Below, one piece after another: positions 12,694-62,000 of a stretch of DNA of 64,000 nucleotides; position 1 is the stretch's first letter; each line of letters starts with the position of its first letter. Made by a program: the position numbers and the translations under genes. Below the pieces are notes generated by a model. It did not search any database and was not told the DNA's origin. It was given only the letters and a program-made list of their open reading frames with translations. The stretch lies in NCBI GenBank assembly GCA_017480385.1, contig JAFVAT010000032.1:15276-79275 (forward strand). Direction: 5' to 3'. The stretch is from Alphaproteobacteria bacterium. Its GTDB lineage: Bacteria; Pseudomonadota; Alphaproteobacteria; CAAGCB01; CAG-977.

Positions 12694-12694
12694 A

Positions 12695-33723: not shown

Positions 33724-34959
<1,236 letters not shown>

Positions 34960-34993
34960 TCAGCATACTTTAGTCGGTTCCCGACGTAAAGAG

Positions 34994-36606: not shown

Positions 36607-36689
36607 TTTTTTTCTTTTTTTTAAGAAGATATTGTGTGTCAGTTTTGGATCGGAGCAAATGGTAAGCTTGTCAGCCAGGGGATATATAA

Positions 36690-36960: not shown

Positions 36961-37059
36961 CAAAAGAAAAGGCAGACTTAATTTATTTTGCATATATAAT
37001 TCCATATCATTATATTAAATAGGCTCATACTATAACAGCGGACAGGCAACAGTAAAACA

Positions 37060-39096
37060 TTGAATACGATTTTGCCCCTTTATGAACGTTTGGAAGATAC
37101 GACGCCGGCAGAGTTTACGTTGGTGTCGGCTTATGAACCGGCAGGAGATCAGCCCGAAGCGATTCAGTCGCTGATTGACGGGCTGCAGAACGGTGAACGC
37201 GATCAGGTGTTAATGGGTGTGACCGGATCGGGCAAGACCTTTACAATGGCACAAATCATTCAGCGCATGAAGCGTCCGGCATTGATTTTGGCGCCGAATA
37301 AGATTTTAGCGGCGCAGTTATACGGGGAAATGAAGTCTTTTTTTCCGAATAACGCAGTGGAATATTTTGTCTCTTATTATGATTATTATCAGCCGGAGGC
37401 CTATATTCCCCGCACAGATACCTATATTGAAAAAGATTCTGCGATTAATGAGCAGATTGACCGCATGCGCCATGGGGCAACGCGGCATATTTTAGAGCGC
37501 CGCGATGTGATTATTGTTGCTTCCGTATCATGCATTTATGGTTTGGGCAGCGTGGAGTCATATTCTTCTATGGCGTTTTCCGTTCAATCAGGCCAGTCTT
37601 ATGATATTAGGGAACTGGCCAGACAGCTGATAGATTTGCAGTATCAGCGCAACGATCTGGCTTTTACGCGCGGCACCTTCCGATTAAAGGGCGATGTACT
37701 GGACATTTTCCCGTCGCATTATGAAGACTTGGCGTGGCGGCTTTCTTTTTTTGGGGACGAGCTGGAATCGATTTCCGAATTTGATCCTTTGACCGGCGTA
37801 AAAAAGCTTGAGCTGAAAGAAATCACCGTTTATCCCGCCAGCCATTATGTGACGCCGCGTCCGGCGCTGTCTCAGGCAATGAAGACAATTCGGCAGGAGC
37901 TGAAAGAACGGCTGTTTTATTATACTTCCGAAAACAAACCGCTGGAGGCCGAACGGATTGAACAAAGAACGCGTTTTGATCTGGAAATGCTGGAGGCGAC
38001 GGGGCACTGCAAGGGCATCGAGAACTATTCTCGCCATTTAACGGGCCGTGCACCGGGAGAACCGCCGCCGACCTTGTTCGAGTATCTGCCGAAGGACGCG
38101 TTGCTGTTTGTTGATGAAAGCCATGTTTCCGTTCCGCAGCTGGGGGGAATGTACCGTGGAGACTTCAACCGCAAAAGCACGTTGGCGATGTATGGATTCC
38201 GCCTGCCCAGCTGTGTGGACAACCGCCCTTTGAAATTTGAAGAATGGGACAGAATGCGACCGCAGACGATTTTTGTTTCCGCGACTCCCGGTCCGTGGGA
38301 ACTGGACCAGACAAAAGGAGTGTTTACGGAACAGATTATTCGTCCGACAGGATTGCTGGATCCTTTATGTGAAGTTCGTCCCGTTGCTGCGCAGGTCGAT
38401 GATTTAATGGCGGAATGCCGCTTGTGCGCGGAAAAGGGGCAGCGTGTTCTGGTGACGACTCTGACGAAAAAAATGGCGGAGGATTTGACGGATTATTTGG
38501 CGGAAAACGGCATCAGAGTACGTTATATGCATTCAGACATTGATACGCTGGAACGCATTGAAATCGTCAGGGATTTGCGCTTAGGTGTTTTCGATGTTTT
38601 GGTCGGGATCAACCTGCTGCGGGAAGGCTTGGATATTCCCGAATGTGCTTTAGTGGCGATTTTGGACGCGGATAAGGAGGGATTCCTGCGTTCGGACCGT
38701 TCTTTGATCCAGACAATCGGGCGTGCCGCGCGCAATGCGGAAGGACGCGTCATTCTGTATGCGGATAAAATTACCGGTTCCATGCAGAGGGCTTTGGACG
38801 AAACGGCGCGCCGTCGGGAAAAGCAGCAGAAGTTTAATTCGGATCACGGCATTACGCCGAAGACCATTCAGCGCGAAATTGCCGATATTTTGCAGGAGCT
38901 GTGTGAAAAAGAGGGCATTGACCAGCTGCCGGACAATAAGGAAAAAGAACTGTTCGGTTCGGAAAAGAAACTGAAGGATACAATAGCTAAATTGGAGCGC
39001 CAGATGCGCAAAGCGGCAGAAGATTTGGAATTTGAGCAGGCAGCCCGTCTGCGTGATGAAATCCGGCGTTTGGAACAAACGATGATGCGGTTTTGA
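37060..39096 (+). CDS. uvrB: Excinuclease ABC subunit B
   Basis: GDQPEAI, Walker [10 protein letters not shown], helicase motifs, C-terminal UVR coiled coil. The start codon is uncertain (non-ATG; TTG at 37060 or an internal TTG/GTG). Confidence 0.9.
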
Positions 39097-40653: not shown

Positions 40654-41136
40654 ATGCTTTTGCCGCCGGATTTGAATCGGGAAGAGTTATTGGCCTATGT
40701 GCGCCCGCTATATCCAAATGGGATATTTCCTTTGGGATCGGGTTGGCAGATAGTGTTTTATGCTGTTTTAATCGGGGTTGCGGCAGGCGTTTTGTTTTAC
40801 CGCAGTCCGTATATGAAACGTAGACGGGAAACATTTGCCGCTTTGAACGGGCTGAGGTGTTCTTTTTTGAAGGACGGCGATGTATCTGTTCTGGCCGGTG
40901 ATCTGTCCGTTTTAATGCGCCGTGTGGCTCTGTTCCGTTTCGGACGGGAAAGGACGGCAGGATTGAACGGGCAGGAATGGATCGATTTTTTAAAACAAAC
41001 GGGGGCGGATTTGAACGAACAGGATCAACAGCTGCTGGCCGTACGGGCCTATGCGCCGCCTTTCTCTGAACAGGATAGGACCGGCGGGAAACATTTGCTG
41101 CGTTCGGTTCAAAAATGGCTGGAGCGCAACGTATGA
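40654..41136 (+). CDS. DUF4381-type membrane protein preceding BatA
   Basis: Single TM (IVFYAVLIGVAAGVLFY), with the position and size typical of the DUF4381 genes that precede batA. Confidence 0.5.
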   Translation: MLLPPDLNREELLAYVRPLYPNGIFPLGSGWQIVFYAVLIGVAAGVLFYRSPYMKRRRETFAALNGLRCSFLKDGDVSVLAGDLSVLMRRVALFRFGRERTAGLNGQEWIDFLKQTGADLNEQDQQLLAVRAYAPPFSEQDRTGGKHLLRSVQKWLERNV

Positions 41137-42131
41137 CGGGGTTTGTTTTTCCGATCATGTTTGCTTTGCTGCCGCTGCCGCTGATCGTGCGGGCTGTTTT
41201 GCCGCCCGTCAATGATGAAAACGAGGACGCGCTCAAAATTCCTTTCTTTGCCGAAATGGAAAGTTTGTCCGCCGGCGGCAGAAGGACCATGCTGGGAGGT
41301 TTGAGAATCCGTCAGATTTTAGGGGCTTTGATCTGGATATTATTGGTCACGGCAGCGGCGGGACCACAATGGATGGGCGCTCCGGCCAAGATCCCCTCAG
41401 AAGGCCGCAATCTGATGTTGGTTCTGGATATTTCGGGATCAATGGACGAAGCGGATTTCGTCATTCAAAACAAAGCCGTGCGCCGGTGGGACGCCGTGCA
41501 GGCGGTGGCGGACGCATTTATAAAAAAACGCGAAGGAGACCGCGTCGGTATCGTCCTGTTTGGCGAAAGGGCTTATTTATACGCGCCTCTGACATTTGAT
41601 TTAAAGACGGTTTCCGATCTGCTGCGGGAAGCCGATGTTGGCATGGCGGGACCTCAGACGGCAATCGGAGACGCTTTGGGTATTGCGTTAAAAACGATGA
41701 TTGATGTTCCGGCGGAAAGCAAGGTTGTCGTTTTATTATCGGACGGGGCGGCCAATGCCGGCAGCATGAAACCTATGGAAGCCGCAGATTTGGCAGCAAA
41801 AATGGGTGTTAAAGTGTATACGATCGGGGCCGGTTCCGATACGATGCAAATGGGCGGAATATTTGGAATGATGCCCTTTGCGCGCGGGGACGAAATTGAT
41901 GAAAAATCGCTTCAAGAAATGGCACAGAAAACGGGCGGGCGGTATTTTCGGGCTAAAAACACGCAGGAGCTGTTGGAAATTTATAAGGAAATCGATGCGC
42001 TGGAGCCGGTGAAAAACGATGATGTGTTTGTGCGTCCCGTCAAAGTGTTGTTTTATTATCCGCTGGCGGCGGCTTTCGGTTTAAGCGTTTTGGGGGCTCT
42101 GCTGATGCTGGCGGGCAGGAGAGGGCGATGA
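41115..42131 (+). CDS. batA: vWA-domain protein BatA
   Basis: N-terminal TM pair, vWA MIDAS DISGSM, C-terminal TM. Confidence 0.75.
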   Translation: MAGAQRMTGFVFPIMFALLPLPLIVRAVLPPVNDENEDALKIPFFAEMESLSAGGRRTMLGGLRIRQILGALIWILLVTAAAGPQWMGAPAKIPSEGRNLMLVLDISGSMDEADFVIQNKAVRRWDAVQAVADAFIKKREGDRVGIVLFGERAYLYAPLTFDLKTVSDLLREADVGMAGPQTAIGDALGIALKTMIDVPAESKVVVLLSDGAANAGSMKPMEAADLAAKMGVKVYTIGAGSDTMQMGGIFGMMPFARGDEIDEKSLQEMAQKTGGRYFRAKNTQELLEIYKEIDALEPVKNDDVFVRPVKVLFYYPLAAAFGLSVLGALLMLAGRRGR

Positions 42132-43987
42132 ACAATTTTCATTTTCTGCGTCCGGAATGGTTTTGGGGTTTTTTGGTTCTGTTTTTACTGCCGTTTTTTA
42201 TTCGCGGCGGCGGCAATTATGGCGGGCTGTGGCAAAAATTATGCGACGGGATCTTGCTGCGGTTTCAACTGATTTCCGGGACGGGACGACGTTTGTTTTG
42301 GCCCTTTTTTCTGGTAACCTCGGCTTGGACGGCAACGCTGTTTTCTTTGGCGGGGCCGACGTGGGAAAAGCTGCCCCAGCCGGCTGTTCAAAAGGGATCG
42401 GATACGGTTTATGTCATGGATATTTCCATGCTGATGTCTCCGACGGATATCAAGCCTTCCCGTATGGAGCGCGCGCGTTTTAAAGCTCACGATTTTCTGC
42501 AGAAAACAAAGGACGGACAAAACGCTTTGATTTTGTATGATCAAAAGCCGTTTGTCGCCGTTCCCCTGACAACGGATCAACATATTATCGACAATCTGCT
42601 GCCGACCGTTCGTGCCGGCATGATGGGATCGGGCATGTCTGATCTGCCTGCCGCGTTGGAAGAAGCGCTGTCCCTGCTGACACAGGCAAAATCAGCCGGC
42701 GGGCGGGTGATCGTGCTCAGCGGGCATGCTGCGGACGATCAATTGCCTCAGCTGTTGAAAACGGCAGAAAAGATTAAAGAGGCAGGGCATTCTCTTTCTT
42801 TTTTGGGTGTTGGCACAAAGCGCGGAGCTCCGCTGCAGCTGCCGAACGGGAATTTTCTGACGCATCAGGGCAGGCCGGTCTTGTCGGCGCTGTCTCAAAA
42901 AAATATGGAAAAGGCGGCGCGCGCCGGCGGTGGAACATATCAAACGGTTACGCTGGACGAAAAGGATATTGAAGCGATACTTGATGCTTTGCCGGAACGA
43001 ACGGAACAGCCGCTTTTTGCCGAACAGGAGCGGGCAAAGGCGGATACGTGGAAAGATTTCGGCGCTGTTTTGTGTATTTTTGTGCTGCCCTTTGCCGCTT
43101 TCGGCTATCGGAAAGGGTGGCTGGGCATTTGGCTGTTTGCGGCAGCTTTAAGTCCCTTGCAGGCGCATGCGTGGACTTTTTCCGATTTATGGACGCGCCC
43201 CGACCGCAGGGAGGCCATGGCGATTGCAGCCGGAGAAACACCGCATGATCCGGCGGTGTTCAACGATCCCGCGTGGCAGGGGGCGGCGGCTTACAAGGCC
43301 GGAGATTATCCGTCGGCGGTTTCTGCTTTGAACGGCGCCCAAGATGCGGAAAACTTGTATAACCAGGGCAATGCGTTGGCGCAGGCGGGGCAGTATCGGC
43401 AGGCTATAGAAACGTATCAGAAAGTATTGGAAAAAATGCCGGATCATGAAGATGCGGCGTTTAATAAAAAATACTTGGAAGATCAGCTGAAAAACAATCA
43501 GCAGAACCAGCAGAAGCAGCAAAATCAAGATCAGCAGAAACAAAATCAGAATCAACAGAACCAAAGCGATTCTCAGGACCAAAAGCAGCAGGATCAAAAA
43601 CAGCGCCAACAGCAGCAGGGGCAGGATCAGCAAAAGCAGCAGGATCAGCAGCGCTCTGATCAGGACCGGCAAAATCAGAATCAATCTGATCAGGATCGGC
43701 GGGATCAGCAGCAGTCTCGGCAGAACCAACAGGATCAGCAGCAGGATCAGTTGAAAGATCAACAGGACCAAAGGGGCGGACAGGAGCAGGCCGGCTCTGT
43801 GCAAAATCAACAGAAAAGCAACCGTAAGCCGCAGTCTGAACAAAAAGCTCCGCCGGAACAAAAGACGGACCAAGATCAGGAAAGACAGGAACAAATGCAA
43901 TGGCTTAGCGTTATTGAGGACGATCCTTCCGGTTTGCTACGCGAACGGATCCGCCGCCATAATCTGATGAACAGGAGAGGAAGATAA
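42128..43987 (+). CDS. batB: vWA + TPR protein BatB/BatC-like with a long Gln/Asp/Lys-rich low-complexity tail
   Basis: vWA with degenerate MIDAS (DISMLM), TM, TPR repeats (AAYKAGDYPSAV...AQAGQYRQAIETYQKVLE), then ~100 aa of QQ/QN/QD repeats. Confidence 0.65.
   Translation: MNNFHFLRPEWFWGFLVLFLLPFFIRGGGNYGGLWQKLCDGILLRFQLISGTGRRLFWPFFLVTSAWTATLFSLAGPTWEKLPQPAVQKGSDTVYVMDISMLMSPTDIKPSRMERARFKAHDFLQKTKDGQNALILYDQKPFVAVPLTTDQHIIDNLLPTVRAGMMGSGMSDLPAALEEALSLLTQAKSAGGRVIVLSGHAADDQLPQLLKTAEKIKEAGHSLSFLGVGTKRGAPLQLPNGNFLTHQGRPVLSALSQKNMEKAARAGGGTYQTVTLDEKDIEAILDALPERTEQPLFAEQERAKADTWKDFGAVLCIFVLPFAAFGYRKGWLGIWLFAAALSPLQAHAWTFSDLWTRPDRREAMAIAAGETPHDPAVFNDPAWQGAAAYKAGDYPSAVSALNGAQDAENLYNQGNALAQAGQYRQAIETYQKVLEKMPDHEDAAFNKKYLEDQLKNNQQNQQKQQNQDQQKQNQNQQNQSDSQDQKQQDQKQRQQQQGQDQQKQQDQQRSDQDRQNQNQSDQDRRDQQQSRQNQQDQQQDQLKDQQDQRGGQEQAGSVQNQQKSNRKPQSEQKAPPEQKTDQDQERQEQMQWLSVIEDDPSGLLRERIRRHNLMNRRGR
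43495..43795 (+). repeat. Imperfect CAG/CAA (Gln)-rich coding low-complexity tract inside batB
   Basis: cagcagaaccagcagaagcagcaaaatcaagatcag... read directly. Gives the spurious L/I-rich antisense ORF 43187-43900. Confidence 0.8.
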
Positions 43988-45840
43988 TGAAGAACAGAAT
44001 CGTATCCGTATTTCTTGTTATGCTTGCTTTATGCCGCAGTGCCGCCGGATTTGAAGCGAATGTCAGCCGCACGGTCATTCCGGAAGGCGAAAGCTTTCAG
44101 CTTTATTTGCGTCAGGACGGAAACGGCGCAAAACCGGATATCTCTGTTTTAAACGAAGATTTTTTAATCACAATGGAGCGCAAAAGTTTCAAATCAACCT
44201 ACGTCAACGGAAAAACGCAATCGTTTAATGAAAACGTGCTGACGCTGATTCCCAAAAAGACGGGAAAGGTGATTCTGCCTTCTATTCGGGCGGGCAAGGA
44301 GCAGACGTCTCCGATTATGCTGACAGTGGTCGCCGGTGGGCAGGCTCTGCCTGATGATCCCGTTGCCCGTGAAAAGGCGCGAGCCGTCCAGCCTAATGTG
44401 TTTATCCGGTATTCATTGGACGATGCGTCTCCTTATGTCGGTCAGCAAATTCCTTTGACGGTACGGCTGTATTCCTTCGTTCAGACGCCGCTTTTGGACG
44501 GGACCGTCCTGCCGCCAAAAGCCGACGGCGTAACGGCGGAACAGTGGGGAGATGTGAAACGCCGCAGAGAAAAGGTGCATAACAGAACTTATGATGTTCT
44601 GGAATATCAGTTTTTATTGTTCGCTCAGAAAAGCGGCAAGCTGGAGCTTTCTCCCGCCCAGTTCAGAGGATCTGTCAGTGATCCCAACGGCCGTCAGGAA
44701 GATATGGAAGACATGTTCGGCATGGGGGGCGCCGGTCTTTTTTCGGGCTTTTTCAGTCAGAAAAGCATAGCGGTCCAATCCGATCCGATCGTTTTGAATG
44801 TTAAGCCTATTCCCGCCGACGTCAGCGGTGCCTGGCTGCCGGCGACAGAGGTAGCCGTATCGGAAGATTTAACGCCGCCGAAACAATCGATTTCTTTGGG
44901 AGAAGCATTGACGCGTACTGTGACGGTTATGGCTTCCGGCGTTCGGGATTCGCAGATTCCCGATTTGGTTTTTGCAGACGGACCGAATTATAAACAGTAT
45001 CCGGGCAAAACGGATTCTAAAAATTTGTTCGACAATAACGGTGTCGTCGGGGTAAAAACGCGCCAGATCGTATTTATGCCGACTGCCGCCGGATCGGTTG
45101 TTTTGCCGCGCATGGAAATACCATGGTTTGATGTGAAGACGGGCAAGACGAAAAAAGCTGTTCTGCCGTCCCGTACGATTACGGTAACGGCAGATGCGGG
45201 CGAGGACGTTTCCGCCACGGTGCCTCCTGCTTCGGCGGCTCCCAAAGCGCCGGCTTTGACGGATTCGGCAGCAGCGTCCGTTTCTTCGCCCGATGCTCCG
45301 GTATCCGCCTTTGCCGAAGCTTTTTCCGAGCCGATGCAGAATCTGGACGAGCAGGTTGCGGCGCAGACTTTTTGGGAAAAATACGTGCATCAGCCGCCCC
45401 TGCGTTTGTTTTTAGCCGGGATTTTGGCCGGCGGAGCGGCAGTAACCGTTCTCTGGCTGCTTATGCATTTCTTGATTTTTAAAAAAGCTGTGCCGCAGAC
45501 GGTATCAGTGCAAGTTAAAGAAAGTGATACGGCGGCGCTCAGACAGCTGAAAGAAGCTTGTCAATCCGGTCCCGCAGAAAAAGTCAAGCAGGCTCTTTTA
45601 AACTGGGGCCGTTCTTTTTGGCCGGACAAGCCGCCTCTGACGGTTTCCGAATTGGCTGAACGGATGAACAGTCCGGCTTTGAAGTTGGAAATAGACGAAC
45701 TTAACCGCGCTTTGTACGGGGAAGACCGGACCGAATGGAGCGGGGAGGATTTCTGGTTGGCTTTTAAAACGGCTGCGACTGACGGAAAGAAGAAAGCGGA
45801 AAATGAAAAAATTCCCGTTCCGCCGCTGTATCCGGATTAA
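43987..45840 (+). CDS. batD: BatD oxygen-tolerance-type protein
   Basis: Signal peptide, BatD N-terminal domain, C-terminal TM (LFLAGILAGGAAVTVLWLL); 617 aa. Confidence 0.65.
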   Translation: MKNRIVSVFLVMLALCRSAAGFEANVSRTVIPEGESFQLYLRQDGNGAKPDISVLNEDFLITMERKSFKSTYVNGKTQSFNENVLTLIPKKTGKVILPSIRAGKEQTSPIMLTVVAGGQALPDDPVAREKARAVQPNVFIRYSLDDASPYVGQQIPLTVRLYSFVQTPLLDGTVLPPKADGVTAEQWGDVKRRREKVHNRTYDVLEYQFLLFAQKSGKLELSPAQFRGSVSDPNGRQEDMEDMFGMGGAGLFSGFFSQKSIAVQSDPIVLNVKPIPADVSGAWLPATEVAVSEDLTPPKQSISLGEALTRTVTVMASGVRDSQIPDLVFADGPNYKQYPGKTDSKNLFDNNGVVGVKTRQIVFMPTAAGSVVLPRMEIPWFDVKTGKTKKAVLPSRTITVTADAGEDVSATVPPASAAPKAPALTDSAAASVSSPDAPVSAFAEAFSEPMQNLDEQVAAQTFWEKYVHQPPLRLFLAGILAGGAAVTVLWLLMHFLIFKKAVPQTVSVQVKESDTAALRQLKEACQSGPAEKVKQALLNWGRSFWPDKPPLTVSELAERMNSPALKLEIDELNRALYGEDRTEWSGEDFWLAFKTAATDGKKKAENEKIPVPPLYPD

Positions 45841-52753: not shown

Positions 52754-53464
52754 ATGGAAAAAAGTGTGTCAAAAGCGTCTGTTCGCAAAAATACAAATAA
52801 AACTGCCGGCTCCGGAGGGAAGCATGCGGAAGGCGGGCGTTTGGCTACATTTATGTGGCTGTCCCGATTTTTCAATATCTTGTGTTTTGTTTTGGTGTTT
52901 TCCGGCTCTGTTTTGGCGCTGTCTTTGCTTCATATAACGAAAGAAGCCGAAGTGAATTCTGTCTTAGTAACGGCGCCGACATATTCCGATAATCTGGCTT
53001 ATTTTGAACCGTTGCATCCGGATATGCCGACCATGGATATTTTGGCGGAAATGTTTGTTCGTCTATATATTACAAGCCGATATAATGTTTGGACAAACAT
53101 ACAAGAAATGCGCGTTGCATGGGGGCCCGGAGGAATAGTGAGCCGTTTATCAACATGGGACGTGTATGATAATTTTTGGGAAACAGAAGCAAAGCGATAT
53201 CTTCCCGATGAAAGCATGGAAATACCTCCCGAAGTAATGATAGATACGGATATTAAGCGGATTATTAAGGAGGGTTGGAACAGTTGGCAGATCTTTTTTG
53301 ATACGCGTAAAATGGAAACAACAATCAGTCCGCCGGTCATAGATCATTGGATCGCAACGATACAGTTCCGATATTATGCGTCGAATGCTGTTATGGCTAC
53401 ACGTTTGCGCAATCCGATGGGATTTACGGTGACGCAATATCATTTAGCACGTCAAAAGCAATAG
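52754..53464 (+). CDS. VirB8/TrbF-like T4SS inner-membrane protein, paralog 1
   Basis: Short cytoplasmic N-terminus, single TM (FFNILCFVLVFSGSVLALSLL), ~180-aa periplasmic domain ending in NPMGFTVTQYHL (VirB8 NPxG-F-x-V-x-x-Y signature). Confidence 0.55.
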   Translation: MEKSVSKASVRKNTNKTAGSGGKHAEGGRLATFMWLSRFFNILCFVLVFSGSVLALSLLHITKEAEVNSVLVTAPTYSDNLAYFEPLHPDMPTMDILAEMFVRLYITSRYNVWTNIQEMRVAWGPGGIVSRLSTWDVYDNFWETEAKRYLPDESMEIPPEVMIDTDIKRIIKEGWNSWQIFFDTRKMETTISPPVIDHWIATIQFRYYASNAVMATRLRNPMGFTVTQYHLARQKQ

Positions 53465-53477
53465 CTTACGGAGAAAG

Positions 53478-53675
53478 ATGATGAATATAAAAGGATTAGG
53501 AAAAGTGGCTTTAATTATCGGCTTTTGTGCGGTTTTAAACGCTTGCGGTTCGATTTATGAAAAAGAGCCGGTCGGCGTCGGTCCGGATATTTCGGAATTA
53601 AAACGCTCCCCTTGTGCCTGTATGTTATTGAAACTTCCTGCCGAACTGCCGGAATGGATATCGGTTAACGGATAA
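53478..53675 (+). CDS. Small lipoprotein (VirB7/CagT/ComB7-like by size and position)
   Basis: 65 aa, lipobox LNAC. Sits between the two VirB8-like genes. Confidence 0.4.
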   Translation: MMNIKGLGKVALIIGFCAVLNACGSIYEKEPVGVGPDISELKRSPCACMLLKLPAELPEWISVNG

Positions 53676-53691
53676 ATGAAAGATGTAAAAT

Positions 53692-54465
53692 ATGCCAAAA
53701 CCGGTTAAATCAAAACAACAGCTGACCATTAAGAATGCCGAGGGAAATGTGCCTGCGCCTCAAAATGCTTCTGTCGGCAGCGTGAAAAAAACGTCAGAGA
53801 AACAGAATGCGCTAAGGACAGAAGAAATATCTGTAGACCTGCTCAGAGAACGGCGTTATTTATGGACTGCCCGCGCTTTTGCGATTGTTTCCGGTGTCGC
53901 TTTGTGTGTGAATTTGGTTTTATTGGTTGCGATTATGCATTTGATGCCATTAAAACGGGTGGAACCGTTTTTGTTGACCTTTCAAAATAAAGAGGAACAA
54001 GTTGTTAAAATTAAGCCGTTGGCAAGTGATATGGCAGCGGAGGATATTATTTCCGAAGCAATGATCCGCCAATATGTTCTTTTGCGCAATACAATGATTG
54101 CGGATATCGATGAAATGGCTTTTCGTTGGGGTCCCGACGGCCCTTTGCGTTGGATGTCGTCCAGTCAGGTTTATAATCAGTTCAGCAAAACGGTCAAAGA
54201 CTGGCTGGCCCGAATCAAACTGGAAGGGTTAACCCGTGAAGTTCGTATTGAATCCGTTGTTCGTAACCAAAACACGTGGTTAGTTTATATTGTAACGCGT
54301 GATATGTTGCCCGAAGCTGAAGAACCGGCAATTTCCCGTTGGCGTATCCGGTTGTCGATCAAATACTTTGCTCAGGGGCAAAATGAGGTTAAATACATCA
54401 ACAGACTGAAAAATCCTTTGGGCTTTGCGGTTGACAGATATATGATTGAAAGTGCTAACGATTAA
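53692..54465 (+). CDS. VirB8/TrbF-like T4SS inner-membrane protein, paralog 2
   Basis: Same topology as paralog 1. C-terminal NPLGFAVDRYMIE motif. Confidence 0.55.
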   Translation: MPKPVKSKQQLTIKNAEGNVPAPQNASVGSVKKTSEKQNALRTEEISVDLLRERRYLWTARAFAIVSGVALCVNLVLLVAIMHLMPLKRVEPFLLTFQNKEEQVVKIKPLASDMAAEDIISEAMIRQYVLLRNTMIADIDEMAFRWGPDGPLRWMSSSQVYNQFSKTVKDWLARIKLEGLTREVRIESVVRNQNTWLVYIVTRDMLPEAEEPAISRWRIRLSIKYFAQGQNEVKYINRLKNPLGFAVDRYMIESAND

Positions 54466-54477
54466 AGAAGGTGTCTC

Positions 54478-56016
54478 GTGAAAAGATATTTGAAAATCCG
54501 CCTTTTTGCAGTTGTTTTAAGTTTGTGTTGTCTGATTGTTCCGCAGGCGTCGGCACAACAGTCTGCTGCCCGTGAATCTATGGACGCGGCTATTGAACAG
54601 TCAAACGGACAATATTCTGAAATAGATATGCCTTTGTGGTCTGTTGGCATGCAGCAAAAAGCTTGGAATAAGCCAATGGAACATTTAGGAGAAGGGCAGT
54701 CTAAACCGGGATATTCCAGATATTACTGGACACCGGATCTGGTTTTGCCTCTGCGTATCCGCGAAGGCATGCATACGTTGGTTAATTTTCCGTCTTGGGA
54801 ATTGATTGAAAATATTTTTATGGGAAATGAAAGTGCCTTCGGCGCTCAAAAGGTAGCTCCGAATGCTTTGATGGTTTTTGCGGCGAATGCCGATTTGGTC
54901 GGCATGGATACGAACATGATTGTTTTTGGCAGATCCGGAAACAGATATGTTTTTTACCTCAGAAGCGAAACTTTTAATACGGACAGAATTACAAACTCGG
55001 TTGTAGATATTATTGTTAATGATGTTAAATTTGTTCCCGATGATTCCGGATTAACGCCAACGGCTTCCGGCGCGATTGTTCCCGGCGGAGGGATTGGCGC
55101 TGCGTTGGGGACAACCGGCGGCGGTTTGCGCGGCGGTAAAAAAACAACCAAAAACGCAACGGAAGATTGGTTGGCCGATTTAGAAGTGGATCCTGAAAAA
55201 ATACGGTTTGATATAGATGTTTTTGTGCCTAATCCAGCGGATATAGAAATTGCGCCGGAACGTGTGTGGCGCGATGAAATCTTCACTTATATTGATTTTG
55301 GCCCGAAAGCTTTGACTATGATAGAGCGACCTATTGTTAACCTGCTTTCTCAAGGATCCGAAGTGCCGATTGGTTTCAGAACACGCGGGCCGAATAGCAG
55401 ATTAATGGTTGTTGAAGGCATTGGTGATTTGGTTTTGCGTAACGGCAAACGTATTTTATGTTTAAAGATCAGAAAAGATCCCTCTTTCGGGACGGAATGG
55501 GTGGAATATGAAGCCTCCGTTCAGCCGCAATGGTCTCCCGGTCCGATGATTACGACGGGCGGATATAACGGCGGCGCTGCACAATCCGGAACGATGGGCG
55601 CTTCGAGTGTCGGTAATGTTCCGAATAATAACGGCATGATGATCTCTATGGGACCAAACGGAACGATGAGCGCCAATCAAATCGCACAGTTTTCTGCGCA
55701 AAGGCAGAGCGGTCAAAATTACGGACGTACGGCACAATCGTACCGCGGAAATTCAGAAGGCGGCTTTGCTATTGAGCTGGGAGCTGACGGGAATATTGTA
55801 ACATTAGAGCAAAAATGGGATGGCATCGCCCGCAAAAATAAAGATTTGCTGGGCGGATATGAACCGTACTATTCGGTAGACGCTGTTGCGGAGGGAGAAT
55901 CAAAAGATATGTTCCGTTTGCGGATCGGTCCTGTTGACAGTATCGAAGCAGGGGACAGGTTATGTAATCAATTAGGTCGCCGCGGGGTGACGTGTATGGT
56001 TGTGCGGACACAATGA
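54478..56016 (+). CDS. VirB9/CagX/TrbG-like outer-membrane-complex protein fused to a C-terminal SPOR peptidoglycan-binding domain
   Basis: GTG start with RBS. Signal peptide. VirB9 C-domain signature DEIFTYIDFGPKALTMIERPIVNLL...LMVVEGIGDLVLRNGKRILCLK. Gly-rich linker. Terminal ~80 aa FAIELGADGN...MFRLRIGPVDSIEAGDRLCNQLGRRGVTCMVV match the SPOR beta-alpha-beta-beta-alpha-beta pattern. Confidence 0.6.
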   Translation: MKRYLKIRLFAVVLSLCCLIVPQASAQQSAARESMDAAIEQSNGQYSEIDMPLWSVGMQQKAWNKPMEHLGEGQSKPGYSRYYWTPDLVLPLRIREGMHTLVNFPSWELIENIFMGNESAFGAQKVAPNALMVFAANADLVGMDTNMIVFGRSGNRYVFYLRSETFNTDRITNSVVDIIVNDVKFVPDDSGLTPTASGAIVPGGGIGAALGTTGGGLRGGKKTTKNATEDWLADLEVDPEKIRFDIDVFVPNPADIEIAPERVWRDEIFTYIDFGPKALTMIERPIVNLLSQGSEVPIGFRTRGPNSRLMVVEGIGDLVLRNGKRILCLKIRKDPSFGTEWVEYEASVQPQWSPGPMITTGGYNGGAAQSGTMGASSVGNVPNNNGMMISMGPNGTMSANQIAQFSAQRQSGQNYGRTAQSYRGNSEGGFAIELGADGNIVTLEQKWDGIARKNKDLLGGYEPYYSVDAVAEGESKDMFRLRIGPVDSIEAGDRLCNQLGRRGVTCMVVRTQ

Positions 56017-59000
56017 ACGAAGAATTACTCAGCTCATCAGACAGATATTTGAAAAAATCCAACAAAATGCTGTTGGTTGTCGGGATTGTTGCATTACTGG
56101 CTTTCCTGATCGGTATTGTTATTTTGTTGAGCGGGGAAGAAGAGCAGAAAAAAGATGCGGAAGTGACTATTGATGGTTCTGCGGACAGTTCGACTAATAT
56201 TACCGGCGGCAATGCGGATACGTTTAATCTTGCTCAGGATATAGATGCAACGACAACATCGACGGTCAGGTTGGTTGTTTCCCCGGAAACTCTGCGTTTT
56301 GATCAGGTCGTTTTGGGAACGGAAGCCGAAGGGACGTTGACGCTGTCCGCTTCTTCCGGTCGGATCAGGATCACCTCCGTTGAATTTGAAAATAAACAGG
56401 AAGAAAGTTTTATTCTGGAAAACAAATGCCGCAAAGATATTGTCCTGACCGGCGATGTGACATGCAACGTTGTTGTTCGCTGGGAACCGAAGACGGCACG
56501 GACGATACAGTCCAATTTAGCTGTTCGGTGGAGTGATGAAACTTTTGGCGGTATTGGTCGGAAAGTGATCGTTCCTATTTCAGCTATGGCAATTGATACC
56601 AGTATGTGCGGCGTGTGTGACGAAGCGCCGGGCGGTGGCGGATCGATGCTTGAGCAGTTGCGTAAAAAAGGACGCGTTGTCTTGGGGCCTGACGGAAAAC
56701 CGATCGGGTACGCCGATGAAAACGGTGTTGTCTATGGTTTGGACGGCAAAAGAATCGGCACGCTGCGTGATGATGGCACTGTTGTCGATGATCAGGGATA
56801 TGTAATTGGTGTTGTTGAAGGGTCAAGGCTGGCAATCGGACCGAATGGAGAAATTTTAGGAACGATTTTGCCCGACGGTCGTGTTATAGATAAGGACGGT
56901 CGGTTAATAGGATATGCTTTGCCTGACGGAACGATCGTAGACCTGAACGGCAATGTGATTGGTTCGGCTGTTAAAACGGGATTAGCATATGACAAATACG
57001 GCAATGTGATCGGTCGCATCATGCCTGACGGGACGGTCGTTGACGAGAATGGAAATATCATCGGATATGTTAACCCGGATGGCACGATTGTTGATATCAA
57101 CGGTAATATTATCGGTTCTGTTGCTCCTCAGGGAACGGTTGTTGATGCTTCAGGAAAACCCTTAGGTATCGTAATGCCTGATGGGACTGTCGTTGATGCG
57201 GACGGGAATATTATTGGGCGTGTTTTACCGAATGGGTTGGTTGTTGATAAAGACGGGAATATTATAGGGCGCGTTGTTAAGGAAGGCTTGGCAATCGGGC
57301 CTGCCTGCAAAATGGTTGGTCGAATCAGTACAGACGGATCGGTGATGTCCGGCAATCGTCAAGTCGGGCGTTTGACGGCTTCCATGGTTGTGGTTGATAT
57401 GTCGGGAAACCCAATTGCCGGTTATGTTGAAGAAGGCGCTTTAATCGACTGGAAAGGCAAAATTATTGGTAAAGTAGACACAGATGGTCAGCCTGTTTCT
57501 TTTAAGGGTGAACCTTTAGGGTGTTTGACGCCGTACGGAACGGTCGTAAATGATTCTGAAGAAATTACGGCATCTGTTTTGCCAAAGGGAACGGTTGTCG
57601 GAAATCAGGCTGAACTTATTGGACGAGTTATGCCGGACGGGTCTGTTGTTGGTAATGGCCAGATGAAAGGACGTATTTTGCCGGACAAGACGTTCTTATC
57701 AGAAGACGGCAATGTTTCAGGGGCTATTGCGCGGCAAAATGTCGGTGTCGGTCCGGGGTGCGTGGCCTTAGGATATGCGAATGTTGACGGCCAAATCATT
57801 ACGGCCAAAGGAGAATTTGCCGGTTATTTAGCGGCAAACGGCGATATTCTTGATGATAAGAAAGTCGTCTTGGGGAAAATTATGGATTCCTCGGTTGTTC
57901 TGAATAATCAGGGCCGTATAGCCGGTATTATGGATGCAAACGGCAAAGTACAAGATAAAAACGGGAAAATTTTGGGCTGTATGGACCCGTCGGGATTGGC
58001 CTTGAATTCTAAAAATGAAGCTGTCGGCATGCAAATGCCTGAGGGTGGTGTTCTGGACCGTGATGGGCGCACAATCGGTTGGGTCATGCCGGACGGCACT
58101 GTTTCGAATACCAGAGGTTCTTCCATCGGTCGGGCTGTACCAGACGGCACTGTCATTGATTTAGGTGGGCAAACAGTAGCCCGGCTGGCTCCTTATAACG
58201 GATTTGCCCTAAGAAATGCCTGTACGGTTGTCGGTAATATTTTGATAGACGGTCGTGTTGTCGATAAAGATTTCAACAGAAAAGCCTATATCCAAATGAA
58301 CGATTCGCTGGTTGATGATAAAGGGGCTTTCTTAGGGCGTGTTGCCTTTGCTTCCCGTGCGATCAGCGCTAAAGACGTTTATTTGGGAATAACGGCAAAA
58401 GATGGCTCACTGTATGATTCTTCGGGCAAAAAGATAGGTTGTCTGCGTCCGGATTCTTTGTTCATTGATGATAAGAACAGGTTTTTGGGAGCGGCATTGC
58501 CTGAAGGAATTGCGGTTAACAATAAAACTAACCTTTATGCCAGAGGGGATTCAATCGCAAAGGCGATGAATTTAAAAGGAAATTCTTTTATCGGAACTAT
58601 TACTCTCAGTGGCTTTGTCAAAGAAAAAGATACGATTTCCGGCGGTATTATCCCTCGGAAGGCGGATGTTTTAGATATTAAAACCAGCAAAACAATAGGT
58701 CGTTTGCTGCCGGACGGTTCTGCGATAGATTTGTCCAGCCGTTACATGGGGCGTTTAAAAATGCCCGGCGGAGAAATTGTTGATAAAAGCGATAAAGTCG
58801 TTGGTAAAATTTTTGTCGGCATGAGGCAGGTCATTGGACCGAACGGAGAAATTTTAGGTGTTGTCATGCCGGACGGTTCTGTTGTGGATGCGTCTGGTCG
58901 TGTGATCGGAAAAGCAAATTTAGACGGTCAGGTTGTTGATGAAAACGGTCGTGTCATCGGTGAGGTTATCCCCGTAGGGCAGCCGATTTTAGGGCTGGAT

Positions 59001-62000
59001 GGTAAGATTATCGGCTATGTCGGAATTGATGGAACAATCGTTGATAAAGACGGCAATCCCGTTTTGGGACCTAATGGTAAACCAATGCGTTATAGAGCCG
59101 GTGGTTCCGTTGTGGAAGAAGATGGAAAAGTTATCGGACGTGTCGGTGAAATGGGGCGACTTGTTTATGATGAAAACGGCAATATAATTGGTCGCGTTTT
59201 GCCCGATGGTACGGTTGTCGATTTAAATGGTAATGTCATTGGGAAAATGCTGCCTGATGGCACCGTCGTTGATTTGAATGGTAATGTAATTGGGCACGCC
59301 GGTGAATTAGAACAGCTCGTATTTGATGAAAACGGTCGTTTAATCGGACGGGTATTGGCTGACGGAACGGTTGTTGATTTCAATGGTAACGTGATTGGCC
59401 GTGTTTTGCCTGACGGTACAGTTATTTCGTTAGACGGCAAGGTGATAGGATATGCCGTAAAAGAAGGGATAGGACTAAATTTTCAAAACGAAGTTTTGGG
59501 TAAAATTAATTCTTCGGGACAGTTGAAAAAACAGGGGTCTGATAAAGTATTAGGAAATTTACAGGTTGATGATACGATCACGGACAGCAAAAACACTATT
59601 ATCGGGCGGGGAATCGTTAATTCAAGACCTGTTGGATTGCAATGTCAAGTTTTGGGAACGATCAATGATAAGGGTGAAGTTGTAGATACGACGGGCAAAA
59701 CAAGCGGTCGTGTAAATTATGATCGATCCTTGATTAATGCGATGAATTCACAGATTGGTCTGGCCCTAGGACAGGAATCCATTATTGATGACTCATGCAA
59801 AATTATTGGTCAAATAAATGCAGAGGGTAAAGCTGTTGATACTAAAGGAACAGAAATCGGCTGTGTTGATTTTGAAGGACTGGTAAAAGATAAAAACGGA
59901 AAACGTCTGGGACGGATTGTTTCCAAAGGGCCGGTGCAGGGACCAAATGGTGATATTGTAGGTAAAATCGTTTCTAATGGCGAAGTTTTAGGAAGTCAGG
60001 GAGATGTACTGGGCTGTTTGTCGCTTAATGGAGCCGTTGTAGATAAGGGAAAGAAAGTCTTAGGGGTTGTTTCCGATCAAAAATATGCCGTTGATGATCG
60101 AGGCAAGATTATTGCTCATGTTATTGGTGGAACGTATGGTGTTAATGCGGAAGGCGGTGCCTTTGTCGGGAAATTGTCAGATCAGGAATTAAAAGAAAAT
60201 GACGATAAATCGTTAGGAGTTTTAATTCCGGGCGGGCGTCGTGTCATTGCCGTTGACGGTAAAATGGTCGGAACGGTTCTTCCACGAGGACGAGTCCAAA
60301 ATGACAAAGGGGAAGAAGTTGGCTATGTTACATCTTCCATGCGTGTTTTAACAGACGATCAAAAATTTTTAGGCCGGGTTGTTCCTATTGGTGAAGAATG
60401 TAAAGATATGAAGGGCAAGACGATAGGAACGGTTCATTTCGACGGAACTATTGTCGATGAAAAGAATCAGGTTCTGGGACGTTTAATGGCCAGCGGTCAG
60501 GCTTTAAATAACGCCGGTGCGCATTTATGTATGATTTCTTTGATCAGCACAAGTGATGACGGGGCTTTATTTCCAAAAGGCTTAATCGGCAAAATGGTGT
60601 ACGGACCGGATGGAAAACCCTTGGGCGTTGTGGGGGCAGACGGTTTTATCCGCGACGCAAACGGGAATATCATCGGCAGAGTTTTGCCGGACGGAACGGT
60701 CGTTGACTTAAATGGCAATGTAATTGGGAAGGCGTATCCTAAAGGGGCTGTTTTCGGGCCGGACGGCAAATTCTTGGGCATTGTTGATGCTGACGGCTAT
60801 CTGCGCGATGAAAACGGGAATATTATCGGTCGTATGCTGCCGGACGGGACTGTTGTTGATATGAACGGCAATATTATCGGACGTGCGCTGCTGGAAGACG
60901 GCATTGTTGATGATAAAGGAAACTTCTTAACAAAAGCTGGACAATCCGGCGAAGCTTTATTGGAACGTTTGGTCTATGATGAAAACGGCAATGTGATCGG
61001 GCGGGTTCTGCCGGATGGAACGGTTGTTGATCTGAATGGCAACGTGATCGGTCGTATGCTTCCGGATGGAACAGTTGTTGATTTAAACGGTAATGTGATT
61101 GGTAAGGCCGGTCCTTTGGAACGATTGGCATATGATAAGGATGGCAAACTGATAGGTCGTGTTTTACCGGATGGAACAGTTGTTGATTTTAACGGCAACG
61201 TGATCGGGAGAATGCTACCTGATGGTACGATAGTTGATAAAAACGGCAATGTGATTGGCCGGGCGGGAACGACTCAGGCGGCTCAGTCCAAAAATGTTAA
61301 AATAGCTGTCGGAAGAGACGGCAAGTTCTTAGGTATAGTTGGGGAAGACGGTTTTGTTCGTGATGCGAACGGCAATATTATCGGACGTGTTTTACCAGAC
61401 GGCACGGTTGTTGATTTAAACGGTAATGTGATTGGTTCCATTTTGGAAGGCGAACCGATGTATGATGAAAACGGTAATATTATCGGTATCATTATGCCGG
61501 ATGGAAAAGTTGTGGATTTGGATGGCAACGTGATCGGACGTATTAATGCCAACGGTGAAATAGTTGATGAAGAAGGGAATATTCTGGGGACATGGCGCGG
61601 CGGAAAATTGACGGTTCAGAGTGACAAGTTGCGGCAAAAACGGTTCGCATTCGACAAAGACGGCAGGCGGATTGGAATGATTATGTCGGATGGTACAGTT
61701 GTTGATGAAAACGGCAATGTGATCGGGCGGGTTCTGCCGGACGGTACCGTTGTTGATTTAGAAGGTAATGTAATTGGTTCAACGACAGATCCGAATGTTT
61801 CTTCGCCTTCATTGGGAAAAACGGATAAAGAGAAGCAGGTTTCTGTTTTTGGTACGTTTGATCCGGATAAATACAGTTATCGGGGAACGGGCGGTACAGG
61901 CAAAGGAGAACGCTATGATCCGGCCAGAATCAAGCGGCTCAGAGAACTGCAAATGGCCTACCGCCGTCAGATCCGTCCCGGAATGGGAATGGGTGAAACG

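What the first reader, a model, noticed from the sequence alone, without database searches (positions are those of the whole stretch)
54478..56016. VirB9-like protein with a C-terminal SPOR (septal peptidoglycan-binding) domain
After the VirB9 C-domain and a Gly-rich linker (GAIVPGGGIGAALGTTGGGLRGG), the last ~80 residues have the spacing and conserved hydrophobic/Gly/Pro pattern of SPOR domains (..ELGADGN...; ..FRLRIGPVDSIEAGDRLCNQL..GVTCMVV). T4SS peptidoglycan anchoring is normally provided by separate OmpA-like or lytic-transglycosylase partners. A SPOR fusion to the VirB9 subunit would tether the outer-membrane complex to denuded glycan strands, possibly at the division septum or pole.
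Basis: partly seen in the sequence, partly recalled or inferred. Interest (0 to 1): 0.6.

Follow-up and report, generated by a model that had tools for sequence, protein, structure and literature searches.

The report
VirB9 secretion subunit with SPOR tail
A core outer-membrane subunit (VirB9) of a type IV secretion machine in uncultured gut alphaproteobacteria really does end in a cell-wall-binding SPOR-fold domain on a long flexible tether, which probably ties the machine to the cell wall, but the residue that normally grips the sugar chain is changed.

Summary
ORF 54478..56016 (+) encodes a 512-aa secreted VirB9/CagX homologue. It lies in a chromosomal VirB8–lipoprotein–VirB8–VirB9–VirB10(–VirB11) cluster. 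Residues 428-512 are a SPOR domain. They pass the Pfam gathering score, as do the tails of 25/25 diverse homologues at E<=0.01. The AF2 model (pLDDT 89) has the β-α-β-β-α-β topology, and its best PDB matches are the CwlC, RlpA and DedD SPOR domains.

The real pre-SPOR tether is a hypervariable low-complexity linker (res 346-427; 62-166 aa in homologues).

The fusion is conserved in all complete loci of 31 gut, rumen and termite alphaproteobacterial MAG species. The SPOR domain is about as conserved (59%) as the VirB9 core (67-73%).

The most likely role is a peptidoglycan tether, and possibly a division-site or pole targeting device, for the outer-membrane core complex.

The caveat is that the most conserved glycan-contact residue (FtsN Q251 / RlpA Q270) is an invariant Glu here, and Q251E weakens FtsN binding. 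Specificity may therefore differ.

I found no paper describing a VirB9–SPOR fusion. SPOR, AMIN and OmpA-like modules on other envelope machines are known. This is a new variant of a known kind, of moderate interest.

The parts
54478..56016 (+). VirB9–SPOR gene (512 aa plus stop)
   Evidence: ORF list and translation. Pfam CagX and SPOR hits. There are 1354 homologues, and the best 120 are 356-615 aa (all but P0054 are 464 aa or longer).
54478..54555 (+). Sec signal peptide (res 1-26, …QASA|QQ)
   Evidence: Read from the sequence: basic N-terminus, hydrophobic core, A-x-A site. A26 and Q27 are invariant. No signal-peptide predictor was run.
54718..55035 (+). VirB9 N-terminal domain (res 81-186)
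   Evidence: Start of the Pfam CagX match. TIGR02781 VirB9 matches 85-166. Mean identity over 31 homologues is 67%.
55036..55158 (+).
   Evidence: Variable in sequence (33% identity) and length (39-61 aa), and flanked by conserved VirB9 blocks.
55159..55512 (+). VirB9 C-terminal domain (res 228-345)
   Evidence: End of the Pfam CagX match. It is the most conserved segment, at 73%.
55513..55758 (+). Low-complexity tether (res 346-427; G14 S11 Q9 N9 A8 M6 of 82)
   Evidence: 20% identity and 62-166 aa long among homologues. Its disorder is inferred from composition, not modelled.
55759..56013 (+). SPOR domain (res 428-512). E433 lies in β1; R480 and R482 in β3; C496 in α2; C506 in β4.
   Evidence: Pfam SPOR scores above GA. 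AF2 model: pLDDT 89.1, β-α-β-β-α-β. Foldseek top hits are CwlC, RlpA and DedD SPOR domains.
52754..53464 (+). VirB8-like protein, copy 1 (236 aa) – context
   Evidence: Pfam VirB8, 40.3 bits.
53478..53675 (+). 65-aa lipoprotein (lipobox LNA|C), candidate VirB7 – context
   Evidence: No HMM hit. It is 75% identical to the syntenic ORF in L003, including the lipobox and a PCAC motif. The VirB7 role is inferred from size and position only.
53692..54465 (+). VirB8, copy 2 (257 aa) – context
   Evidence: Pfam VirB8, 77 bits.
55992..63059 (+). Giant VirB10/TrbI homologue (2355 aa from the GTG; probably starts at ATG 56013, overlapping the VirB9 stop as ATGA) – context
   Evidence: TrbI domain at res 2039-2236, preceded by about 23 β-flower/DUF3659/YD-type repeats. 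The ATGA overlap was read.

Best explanation
The gene encodes the VirB9 subunit of a chromosomal, vertically inherited VirB-type (type IVA) secretion system of an uncultured anaerobic gut alphaproteobacterium. After export, the two VirB9 domains are expected to assemble with VirB10 and a small lipoprotein into the outer-membrane core complex.

From the end of the C-terminal domain, which sits under the outer membrane, a disordered tether of about 80 residues (62-166 in relatives) carries a disulfide-stabilised SPOR-fold domain. Because VirB9 is present in many copies per complex, this would form a ring of flexible wall-binding modules. These would dock on peptidoglycan glycan strands through the β-sheet face that bears E433, R480 and R482, fixing the machine to the sacculus.

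If the ligand is amidase-processed ('denuded') glycan, as for all characterised SPOR domains, subunits would be captured at the division septum and the machine would be pre-installed at new poles.

Shown here: the domain architecture, the fold, its conservation and the gene context. Inferred: assembly into the core complex, the disulfide, PG binding, ligand identity and localisation.
For: VirB9 identity: Pfam CagX scores above GA. NCBI names homologues TrbG/VirB9. The gene is flanked by two VirB8 genes and a VirB10 gene, and VirB11 follows in L003.

SPOR identity: PF05036 scores above GA for the protein and for 25/25 diverse tails. The AF2 model has pLDDT 89.1 with SPOR topology. The best PDB structural matches are CwlC 1x60 (E 3.9e-4, TM 0.67/0.75) and RlpA 6i09/6i05 (TM 0.65/0.73-0.75), with DedD 6ztg ranked fifth.

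Selection: the SPOR segment is 59% identical across 31 homologues, against 67-73% for the VirB9 domains and 20-33% for the linkers. Sixteen residues are invariant, including R480, R482, C496 and C506. R480 aligns with FtsN R285, which is equivalent to RlpA R309 of the glycan-binding basic patch.

The architecture of a folded SPOR domain on a low-complexity linker is the typical SPOR layout. The fusion is present in 30/31 species-level genome loci, with constant synteny down to 46-48% identity.

Precedents for the logic: the Legionella T2SS secretin LspD carries a SPOR domain. PilQ AMIN domains recruit the type IVa pilus machine to future division sites. DotK binds PG and is needed for polar Dot/Icm localisation.
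Against: E433 occupies the position of the most conserved SPOR residue (RlpA Q270 / FtsN Q251). That residue donates H-bonds to the NAM lactyl carboxylate and the NAG N-acetyl group. FtsN Q251E reduces septal localisation and denuded-glycan binding.

Only the C-terminal part of the Pfam SPOR profile aligns (positions 34-76 for the whole protein, 30-76 for the isolated tail, of 76). The PDB sequence-profile search gives only a weak CwlC hit (E 0.033).

The E433/Q251 equivalence rests on motif and strand register (I-E-L-G against V-Q-C-G / V-Q-I-G), not on a printed structural superposition. No binding or localisation data exist, and the organisms are uncultured. PG-binding-like folds within T4SS core complexes have been suspected of not binding PG (DotK/Lpg0657, later contradicted for DotK).
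Confidence: 0.6

Rival explanations
1. The tail is SPOR-derived with altered specificity. The acidic residue in β1 has retuned the cleft to a different wall feature, for example N-deacetylated glycan whose free amine could pair with the carboxylate, anhydro-ends, or another periplasmic polysaccharide. It would still anchor the machine, but not to classical denuded septal glycan.
For: Glu is invariant at the Gln position in 32 homologues. Glu or Asp is kept in most of the more distant representatives whose tails align to the SPOR-tail profile and cover that position (28 of 30; P0130 has Gln, P0143 Asp-shifted), and LDLG appears in further tails such as P0151. This argues for a selected feature rather than decay. 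The Arg pair R480/R482 is retained. In simulations, RlpA's SPOR domain loses N-deacetylated PG because Q270 cannot bond to it. The acetylation state of PG controls T4SS anchoring and polarity in Legionella.
Against: There is no direct evidence for any ligand. Glu could simply salt-bridge to R480/R482 and play a structural role. Nothing in the window encodes a PG deacetylase.
Confidence: 0.2
2. The tail is a protein–protein module. The SPOR-fold domain no longer binds the wall but docks on another T4SS component, such as the repeat-rich periplasmic part of the giant VirB10, VirB8, or the lipoprotein, as an extra layer of the core complex.
For: The canonical Gln is lost. VirB9–SPOR strictly co-occurs with a giant VirB10 of 2254-2488 aa in loci as distant as 47% identity. 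The DotK and Lpg0657 PG-binding-like folds are integral parts of the Dot/Icm core complex.
Against: A hypervariable tether of 62-166 aa suits a roaming anchor better than a fixed structural contact. The basic patch on the sheet is conserved. The best structural neighbours are all PG-binding SPOR domains.
Confidence: 0.15
3. Chance similarity, or an assembly or annotation artefact that fuses two genes.
For: The Pfam score is only modestly above threshold, and only part of the profile aligns.
Against: The ORF is continuous with the same architecture in 119 of the 120 best homologues and in 30 of 31 independent MAG loci. All 25 of 25 tails hit SPOR. The model is confident and returns SPOR-specific structural matches.
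Confidence: 0.02

Closest known systems
VirB9 / TrbG / CagX subunits of type IVA secretion systems (Pfam PF03524)
   Same: Signal peptide, two-domain VirB9 core with a Pfam score above GA, and neighbours VirB8, VirB10 and VirB11.
   Different: About 170 extra C-terminal residues (tether plus SPOR domain) and an extended Gly-rich inter-domain linker. It scores far below the TIGR02781 equivalog cut-off (41 against 217.7 bits), so it is a divergent lineage. Canonical VirB9 is about 250-300 aa (from general knowledge).
SPOR domains of FtsN, DamX, DedD, RlpA and CwlC (Pfam PF05036)
   Same: β-α-β-β-α-β RNP-like fold. A conserved Arg-x-Arg lies in β3 and aligns with FtsN R285 / RlpA R309-R311. The domain sits on a low-complexity linker. 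A Cys in β4 occupies the position of FtsN C312.
   Different: β1 reads I-E-L-G instead of x-Q-x-G-a-F, so Gln is replaced by Glu and the Phe is not kept. The disulfide partner would lie in α2 rather than β1. The domain is attached to a secretion-machine subunit rather than to a divisome protein or wall hydrolase.
Legionella T2SS secretin LspD with an N-terminal SPOR domain
   Same: A SPOR-type module is fused directly to the outer-membrane channel subunit of a trans-envelope secretion machine.
   Different: It is a different machine (a T2SS secretin) and the SPOR domain is N-terminal. I did not examine the LspD sequence here.
PilQ AMIN domains (type IVa pilus secretin)
   Same: PG-binding domains on the multimeric outer-membrane subunit recruit the machine to future division sites, giving polar pre-installation without dedicated PG hydrolases. 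This is the mechanism proposed here.
   Different: AMIN is an unrelated fold, and the machine is different.
DotK (OmpA-like lipoprotein of the Legionella Dot/Icm type IVB core complex)
   Same: A PG-binding module within a T4SS outer-membrane complex. It is required for polar localisation and is sensitive to PG modification.
   Different: It is a separate lipoprotein with an OmpA-like fold that targets the peptide stem (m-DAP), and the system is type IVB. Its PG binding was initially doubted from the structure.

Membership tests
VirB9/TrbG/CagX (PF03524) | Match to the family HMM above the curated threshold | tested here: met
   44.9 bits against GA 34.2, res 81-329.
VirB9/TrbG/CagX (PF03524) | Equivalog-level match to P-type VirB9 (TIGR02781) | tested here: not met
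   41.1 bits against a cut-off of 217.7, a partial match. It belongs to the broad family but not to the narrow equivalog.
VirB9/TrbG/CagX (PF03524) | Encoded with other T4SS core genes (VirB8, VirB10, VirB11) | tested here: met
   VirB8 ×2 and VirB10/TrbI are in the window. A VirB11-type ATPase follows in L003. The layout is the same in L025 and L029.
VirB9/TrbG/CagX (PF03524) | Assembles with VirB7 and VirB10 into an outer-membrane core complex | not testable with these tools
   A conserved 65-aa lipoprotein lies two genes upstream, but it has no HMM match.
SPOR domain (PF05036) | Match to the family HMM above the curated threshold | tested here: met
   23.8 bits (whole protein) and 28.2 bits (tail) against GA 21. 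All 25/25 homologue tails match, though only profile positions ~30-76 of 76 align.
SPOR domain (PF05036) | RNP-like β-α-β-β-α-β fold with a four-stranded sheet backed by two helices | tested here: met
   AF2 model, pLDDT 89.1. Foldseek top hits are CwlC and RlpA (ranks 1-3) and DedD (rank 5) SPOR domains, with TM up to 0.75.
SPOR domain (PF05036) | Conserved β1 glutamine that contacts the glycan (FtsN Q251 / RlpA Q270) | tested here: not met
   Glu is invariant (E433) in 32 homologues, and Asp or Glu in most more distant tails. The equivalence is by motif register, not by superposition.
SPOR domain (PF05036) | Basic patch on the sheet (FtsN R285; RlpA R302/R309/R311) | tested here: met
   R480 and R482 are invariant. 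R480 aligns with FtsN R285.
SPOR domain (PF05036) | Binds denuded peptidoglycan and localises to the septum | not testable with these tools
   This needs sacculus pull-down, ITC and localisation assays.
Rickettsiales vir-homologue (rvh)-type T4SS | Duplicated VirB8 genes flanking virB7, followed by virB9-virB10-virB11, and T4SS genes split over several chromosomal sites | tested here: inconclusive
   The B8–lipoprotein–B8–B9–B10(–B11) order is seen here. The upstream flank is housekeeping with no VirB2-B6 or VirD4. The rvh gene order is from my memory, and no phylogeny was done.

The most novel reading that the evidence does not exclude
The VirB9 tail defines a distinct, acid-for-glutamine subclass of SPOR domains that reads a wall feature other than classical denuded glycan, or reads it differently. 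It would use that cue to pre-install a type IV secretion machine at the division septum, giving polar T4SSs without a dedicated VirB1-type hydrolase. A homologous but more diverged two-Cys tail on VirB9 proteins of culturable Microvirga suggests this is an ancient, widespread and overlooked feature of an alphaproteobacterial T4SS lineage.
Probability: 0.15. Interest if true: 0.65.

Novelty: new variant of a known kind. Interest (0 to 1): 0.45.

Why it matters
How T4SSs are fixed in the cell wall and placed at particular cell sites is only partly understood. The known solutions use separate partners, such as lytic transglycosylases or the OmpA-like DotK.

A SPOR domain built into the multi-copy VirB9 ring would be a self-contained anchoring and positioning device. 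It parallels the AMIN domains of PilQ and the SPOR domain of the LspD secretin, and would extend the 'pre-install at the septum' principle to type IV secretion.

The invariant Glu at the key glycan-contact position makes this family a natural experiment on SPOR ligand specificity.

The hosts are common but uncultured alphaproteobacteria of human, ruminant and termite guts, whose biology and any T4SS-mediated interactions are essentially unknown.

Tried and rejected
1. A sequence-profile search of the tail against all PDB chains gave only a weak CwlC SPOR hit (E 0.033) covering the β3-α2-β4 half. It was not decisive on its own.
2. hhalign against the FtsN SPOR domain (sequence recalled from memory, checked against published residue numbers) aligned only the C-terminal half, at 31% probability. 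It was useful for the R480 = R285 equivalence only.
4. Literature searches for VirB9 + 'SPOR domain', RF32 + type IV secretion, and T4SS + SPOR + core complex returned nothing. The absence holds only for the held library.
5. I looked for cultured carriers. All clear SPOR-type representatives are MAGs.
6. Microvirga spp. carry a related tail. hhalign puts it at 88% probability (E 3e-6) against the SPOR-tail profile, and it models as β-α-β-β-α-β. However, Pfam does not call it SPOR, and Foldseek returns only generic ferredoxin-like folds with best E 0.11. I do not claim it is a SPOR domain.
7. I considered that the reverse-strand ORFs overlapping the gene (54954..55286, 55462..55737, 55769..56212) might be real. 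I rejected this because they lie inside a strongly conserved coding frame.
8. I looked in the window for a PG amidase, lytic transglycosylase or deacetylase that could supply the ligand and found none. The rest of the genome was not available.
Full report
**1. The observation**

The window has an ORF at 54478..56016 on the + strand, of 512 codons. It starts at a GTG that sits 6 nt after an AGAAGG ribosome-binding motif. Homologues start at the same place (MKRYLKIRLF…). The N-terminus reads as a Sec signal peptide ending …QASA|QQ, with A26 and Q27 invariant in 32 aligned homologues.

- Pfam reports CagX/VirB9 (PF03524) over residues 81-329 at 44.9 bits (gathering score 34.2).
- Pfam reports SPOR (PF05036) over residues 465-510 at 23.8 bits (gathering score 21, E 5.7e-5).
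- NCBIfam gives only a partial, sub-threshold match to the P-type VirB9 equivalog.

One detail is wrong: the Gly-rich stretch GAIVPGGGIGAALGTTGGGLRGG (residues 198-220) is not downstream of the VirB9 C-domain. It separates the N- and C-terminal VirB9 domains, and the strongly conserved block 228-345 follows it.

**2. Anatomy of the protein**

A 32-sequence alignment (47-83% identity to the query) and per-segment statistics give the layout below.

| Segment | Residues | Mean identity to query | Length in homologues |
|---|---|---|---|
| Signal peptide | 1-26 | 23% | – |
| Conserved N-terminal segment | 27-80 | 63% | – |
| VirB9 N-terminal domain | 81-186 | 67% | – |
| Gly-rich inter-domain linker | 187-227 | 33% | 39-61 aa |
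| VirB9 C-terminal domain | 228-345 | 73% | – |
| Low-complexity tether (G/S/Q/N/A/M-rich) | 346-427 | 20% | 62-166 aa |
| C-terminal (SPOR) domain | 428-512 | 59% | – |

The last domain is nearly as conserved as the VirB9 core, while both linkers drift freely. That is the signature of a functional domain on a flexible tether.

**3. Is the last domain a SPOR domain?**

- The isolated 90-residue tail scores 28.2 bits against Pfam SPOR. All 25 of 25 mutually diverse homologue tails (46-71% identical to the query) match SPOR at E<=0.01, with a best E of 5.8e-8.
- An AlphaFold2 model built on that alignment has mean pLDDT 89.1. Its order of elements is β(7-15)-α(18-31)-β(41-46)-β(56-64)-α(67-78)-β(85-89).
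- In a Foldseek search of the PDB, the three best matches are SPOR domains. These are CwlC 1x60 (E 3.9e-4, TM 0.67/0.75) and RlpA SPOR with and without bound denuded glycan (6i09, 6i05; TM 0.65/0.73-0.75). DedD 6ztg ranks fifth. Generic ferredoxin-like folds such as ribosomal protein S6 and PII-like proteins follow, with TM ≤0.47 for every other hit listed.
- Sequence-only evidence is weaker. Only Pfam profile positions ~30-76 align, and a profile search of PDB sequences finds only CwlC at E 0.033.

The domain is a SPOR-fold domain.

**4. What deviates from canonical SPOR domains**

The RlpA–glycan crystal structures show three things:
- Four side chains make direct polar contacts with the glycan: Q270, R302, R309 and R311.
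- Q270 (FtsN Q251) is the only highly conserved residue. It bonds the NAM lactyl carboxylate and the NAG N-acetyl group.
- A Phe four residues on (F274) shapes the glycan.

In this family β1 reads I-E-L-G-(A/S/T)-x, against V-Q-C-G-S-F in FtsN, L-Q-V-G-A-F in RlpA and V-Q-I-G-A-F in CwlC.
- The Glu (E433) is invariant in the 32 homologues.
- Glu or Asp is kept in 28 of the 30 more distant representatives whose tails align to the SPOR-tail profile and cover that position, and Asp (LDLG) recurs in further tails the profile misses, e.g. P0151.
- The Phe position is not conserved.
- FtsN Q251E is reported to reduce septal localisation and denuded-glycan binding.
- The Arg pair of β3 is kept. F-R-L-R-I-G-P has R480 and R482 invariant, and R480 aligns with FtsN R285 (= RlpA R309) in hhalign.

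The Gln/Glu equivalence rests on motif and strand register, because no tool printed a structural superposition. I verified my recalled FtsN sequence only by its agreement with the published numbering of Q251, C252, S254, W283, R285, C312 and I313.

Two cysteines, C496 in α2 and C506 in β4, are invariant here. They are also the only invariant positions in the more distant tails. C506 occupies the position of FtsN C312, which forms a disulfide in FtsN (from general knowledge of the Duncan et al. 2013 work, cited). A periplasmic disulfide is therefore likely but was not measured.

**5. Genomic and taxonomic context**

The gene lies in the order: VirB8-like (52754..53464), 65-aa lipoprotein with lipobox LNA|C (53478..53675), VirB8 (53692..54465), VirB9–SPOR, then a 2355-aa VirB10/TrbI homologue (55992..63059).

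- The VirB9 stop codon TGA overlaps an in-frame ATG of VirB10 as ATGA, which suggests translational coupling.
- In the syntenic locus L003, a VirB11-type ATPase follows VirB10.
- Upstream, the window is ordinary chromosome of an anaerobe. It encodes UvrB, UvrC, IspDF, Dus, TrkA, HflX, a PTS, phosphofructokinase, a DEAD-box helicase, [FeFe]-hydrogenase, rubrerythrin, a BatA-D-like operon and ComEC.
- There is no relaxase, VirB2-B6, VirD4, PG amidase or lytic transglycosylase in the window.

A scan of one genome per species found 31 loci. All are MAGs from human, primate, horse, ruminant and termite guts, titled uncultured Alphaproteobacteria, Rhodospirillales or Rhodospirillaceae. I suspect the GTDB 'RF32'-type gut lineage, but could not verify this.

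A profile of the SPOR tail hits exactly one ORF, the VirB9 ORF, in the window and in 30 of these 31 loci. The exception, L031, is a contig that ends before the tail. Loci only 47% identical keep the same VirB8–VirB8–VirB9(SPOR)–giant VirB10–VirB11 order. The flanking housekeeping genes are the same in L003. The system is therefore chromosomal and vertically inherited in this clade, not a recent mobile-element insertion.

**6. How far the fusion extends**

- An exhaustive search of 1.84 billion cluster representatives found 718 relatives (E<=1e-3) and 88 at E<=1e-30.
- Among the best 150, 31 carry a tail recognised by the SPOR-tail profile. Another 27 long VirB9 proteins (>=380 aa) end in a tail with the same two-Cys spacing and a β-α-β-β-α-β-like pattern.
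- Pfam calls SPOR weakly, or not at all, in these more distant proteins.
- The only named carriers are Microvirga species, with proteins of 536-558 aa.
- The Microvirga tail profile aligns with the SPOR-tail profile over 82 columns (hhalign 88%, E 3.1e-6) and models with the same topology at pLDDT 80.6. Its PDB neighbours are only generic ferredoxin-like folds (best E 0.11).

I conclude that a homologous C-terminal domain is an old feature of a wider alphaproteobacterial VirB9 lineage. Only the gut clade can be called SPOR with confidence.

**7. Mechanism**

From established T4SS structures (pKM101 and R388 core complexes; general knowledge), VirB9 is present in about 14 copies. Its C-terminal domain sits in the outer layer directly under the outer membrane.

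A disordered tether of 62-166 residues from that point can easily span the distance to the peptidoglycan layer (inference). The most economical reading is a ring of flexible SPOR modules that fasten the core complex to glycan strands.

All characterised SPOR domains bind amidase-processed, stem-free glycan that is enriched at the septum. If this one does too, VirB9 monomers or sub-complexes would be captured at the division site, and the machine would end up at new poles. This is the strategy shown for the type IVa pilus secretin through its AMIN domains. There are two further parallels: the SPOR domain on the Legionella T2SS secretin LspD, and the PG-binding DotK that supports polar Dot/Icm localisation.

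My confidence in each step:
- About 0.95 that the architecture is VirB9 plus a SPOR fold.
- About 0.6 that it binds peptidoglycan.
- About 0.35-0.4 that the ligand is classical denuded glycan with septal or polar targeting.

**8. Rivals**

- The invariant acidic residue may mark a retuned specificity, for example for N-deacetylated glycan. RlpA's Gln cannot hold that ligand, and PG acetylation state matters for T4SS placement in Legionella.
- The domain may have become a protein-docking module, perhaps for the giant repeat-rich VirB10 with which it always co-occurs.
- Chance or artefact is excluded by the conservation and fold evidence.

**9. Novelty and score**

I found no paper linking VirB9 or T4SS core complexes to SPOR domains in the held library. 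Database records name these proteins simply 'TrbG/VirB9 family'.

The principle of a PG-binding module on the outer-membrane subunit of an envelope machine is well established. I therefore rate this a new variant of a known kind, with moderate interest (0.45). The Gln-to-Glu signature and the wider two-Cys tail family are the parts most likely to repay follow-up.

Noticed in passing
window 55992..63059 (+): The VirB10/TrbI homologue is giant, at 2355 aa. It has an N-terminal TM segment and a choice-of-anchor-D-like stretch. About 1,700 aa follow, made of ~23 β-flower / DUF3659 / YD-type repeats (…DGTVVDxNGNVIGRVLP…). The TrbI domain is at res 2039-2236, followed by a Q-rich tail. Its size is conserved in relatives: 2298 aa in L003, 2254 in L025 and 2488 in L029. 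It always sits next to VirB9–SPOR. The repeat region replaces the usual Pro-rich periplasmic spacer of VirB10.
   Followed up: partly
window 52754..54465 (+): Two VirB8 paralogues (236 and 257 aa) flank a conserved 65-aa lipoprotein (lipobox LNAC, PCAC motif). That lipoprotein has no HMM hit and may be the VirB7 equivalent. The B8–B7–B8–B9–B10–B11 order, and the absence of VirB2-B6/D4 nearby, resemble the split Rickettsiales rvh system as I remember it. No phylogeny was done.
   Followed up: partly
window 56013..56016: The VirB9 stop codon TGA overlaps an in-frame ATG of the VirB10 gene as ATGA. The true VirB10 start is probably ATG 56013 rather than the GTG at 55992 listed by the ORF finder.
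   Followed up: yes
P0178 and relatives (Microvirga spp., e.g. WP_262266973.1), outside the window: VirB9 proteins of culturable Microvirga (536-558 aa) end in a two-Cys tail homologous to the SPOR tail (hhalign 88%, E 3e-6) with the same predicted topology. Neither Pfam nor Foldseek recognises it as SPOR. It could serve as an experimental handle.
   Followed up: partly
window 31475..33598 (-): A ComEC-type competence channel gene (707 aa). The best NCBIfam match of the VirB10 C-terminal domain is ComB10 of the Helicobacter DNA-uptake T4SS, though far below its cut-off. One JGI record calls a distant VirB9 relative 'ComB9'. A DNA-uptake role for this T4SS is conceivable but untested.
   Followed up: no
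window 8503..9951 (-), 14510..15085 (+), 10147..14479 (+): An [FeFe]-hydrogenase, a rubrerythrin and a fused EIIA-HPr-EI PTS protein with an EIICB point to a fermentative anaerobe. This fits the gut and rumen origin of all related MAGs.
   Followed up: no
window 34000..38000; ORF 34994..36658 (-): G+C drops to 0.41, against about 0.48-0.50 elsewhere, around a 554-aa ORF with no Pfam match, just upstream of uvrB.
   Followed up: no
L015 (CAVCSV010000010.1) and L026 (CAZXTR010000002.1): Two contigs carry this alphaproteobacterial T4SS locus (70% and 48% identity) but are deposited under Limosilactobacillus gorillae and 'uncultured Lactobacillales'. They are probably mis-binned or mislabelled contigs.
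   Followed up: no
window 56000..62000: GC skew is unusually high (0.27-0.31) across the VirB10 repeat region. This is presumably a compositional effect of the Gly/Asp/Val-rich repeats rather than a replication signal.
   Followed up: no
window 41115..45840 (+): A BatA–BatD-like operon (VWA, VWA+TPR, BatD/DUF7939) lies upstream of the T4SS cluster.
   Followed up: no
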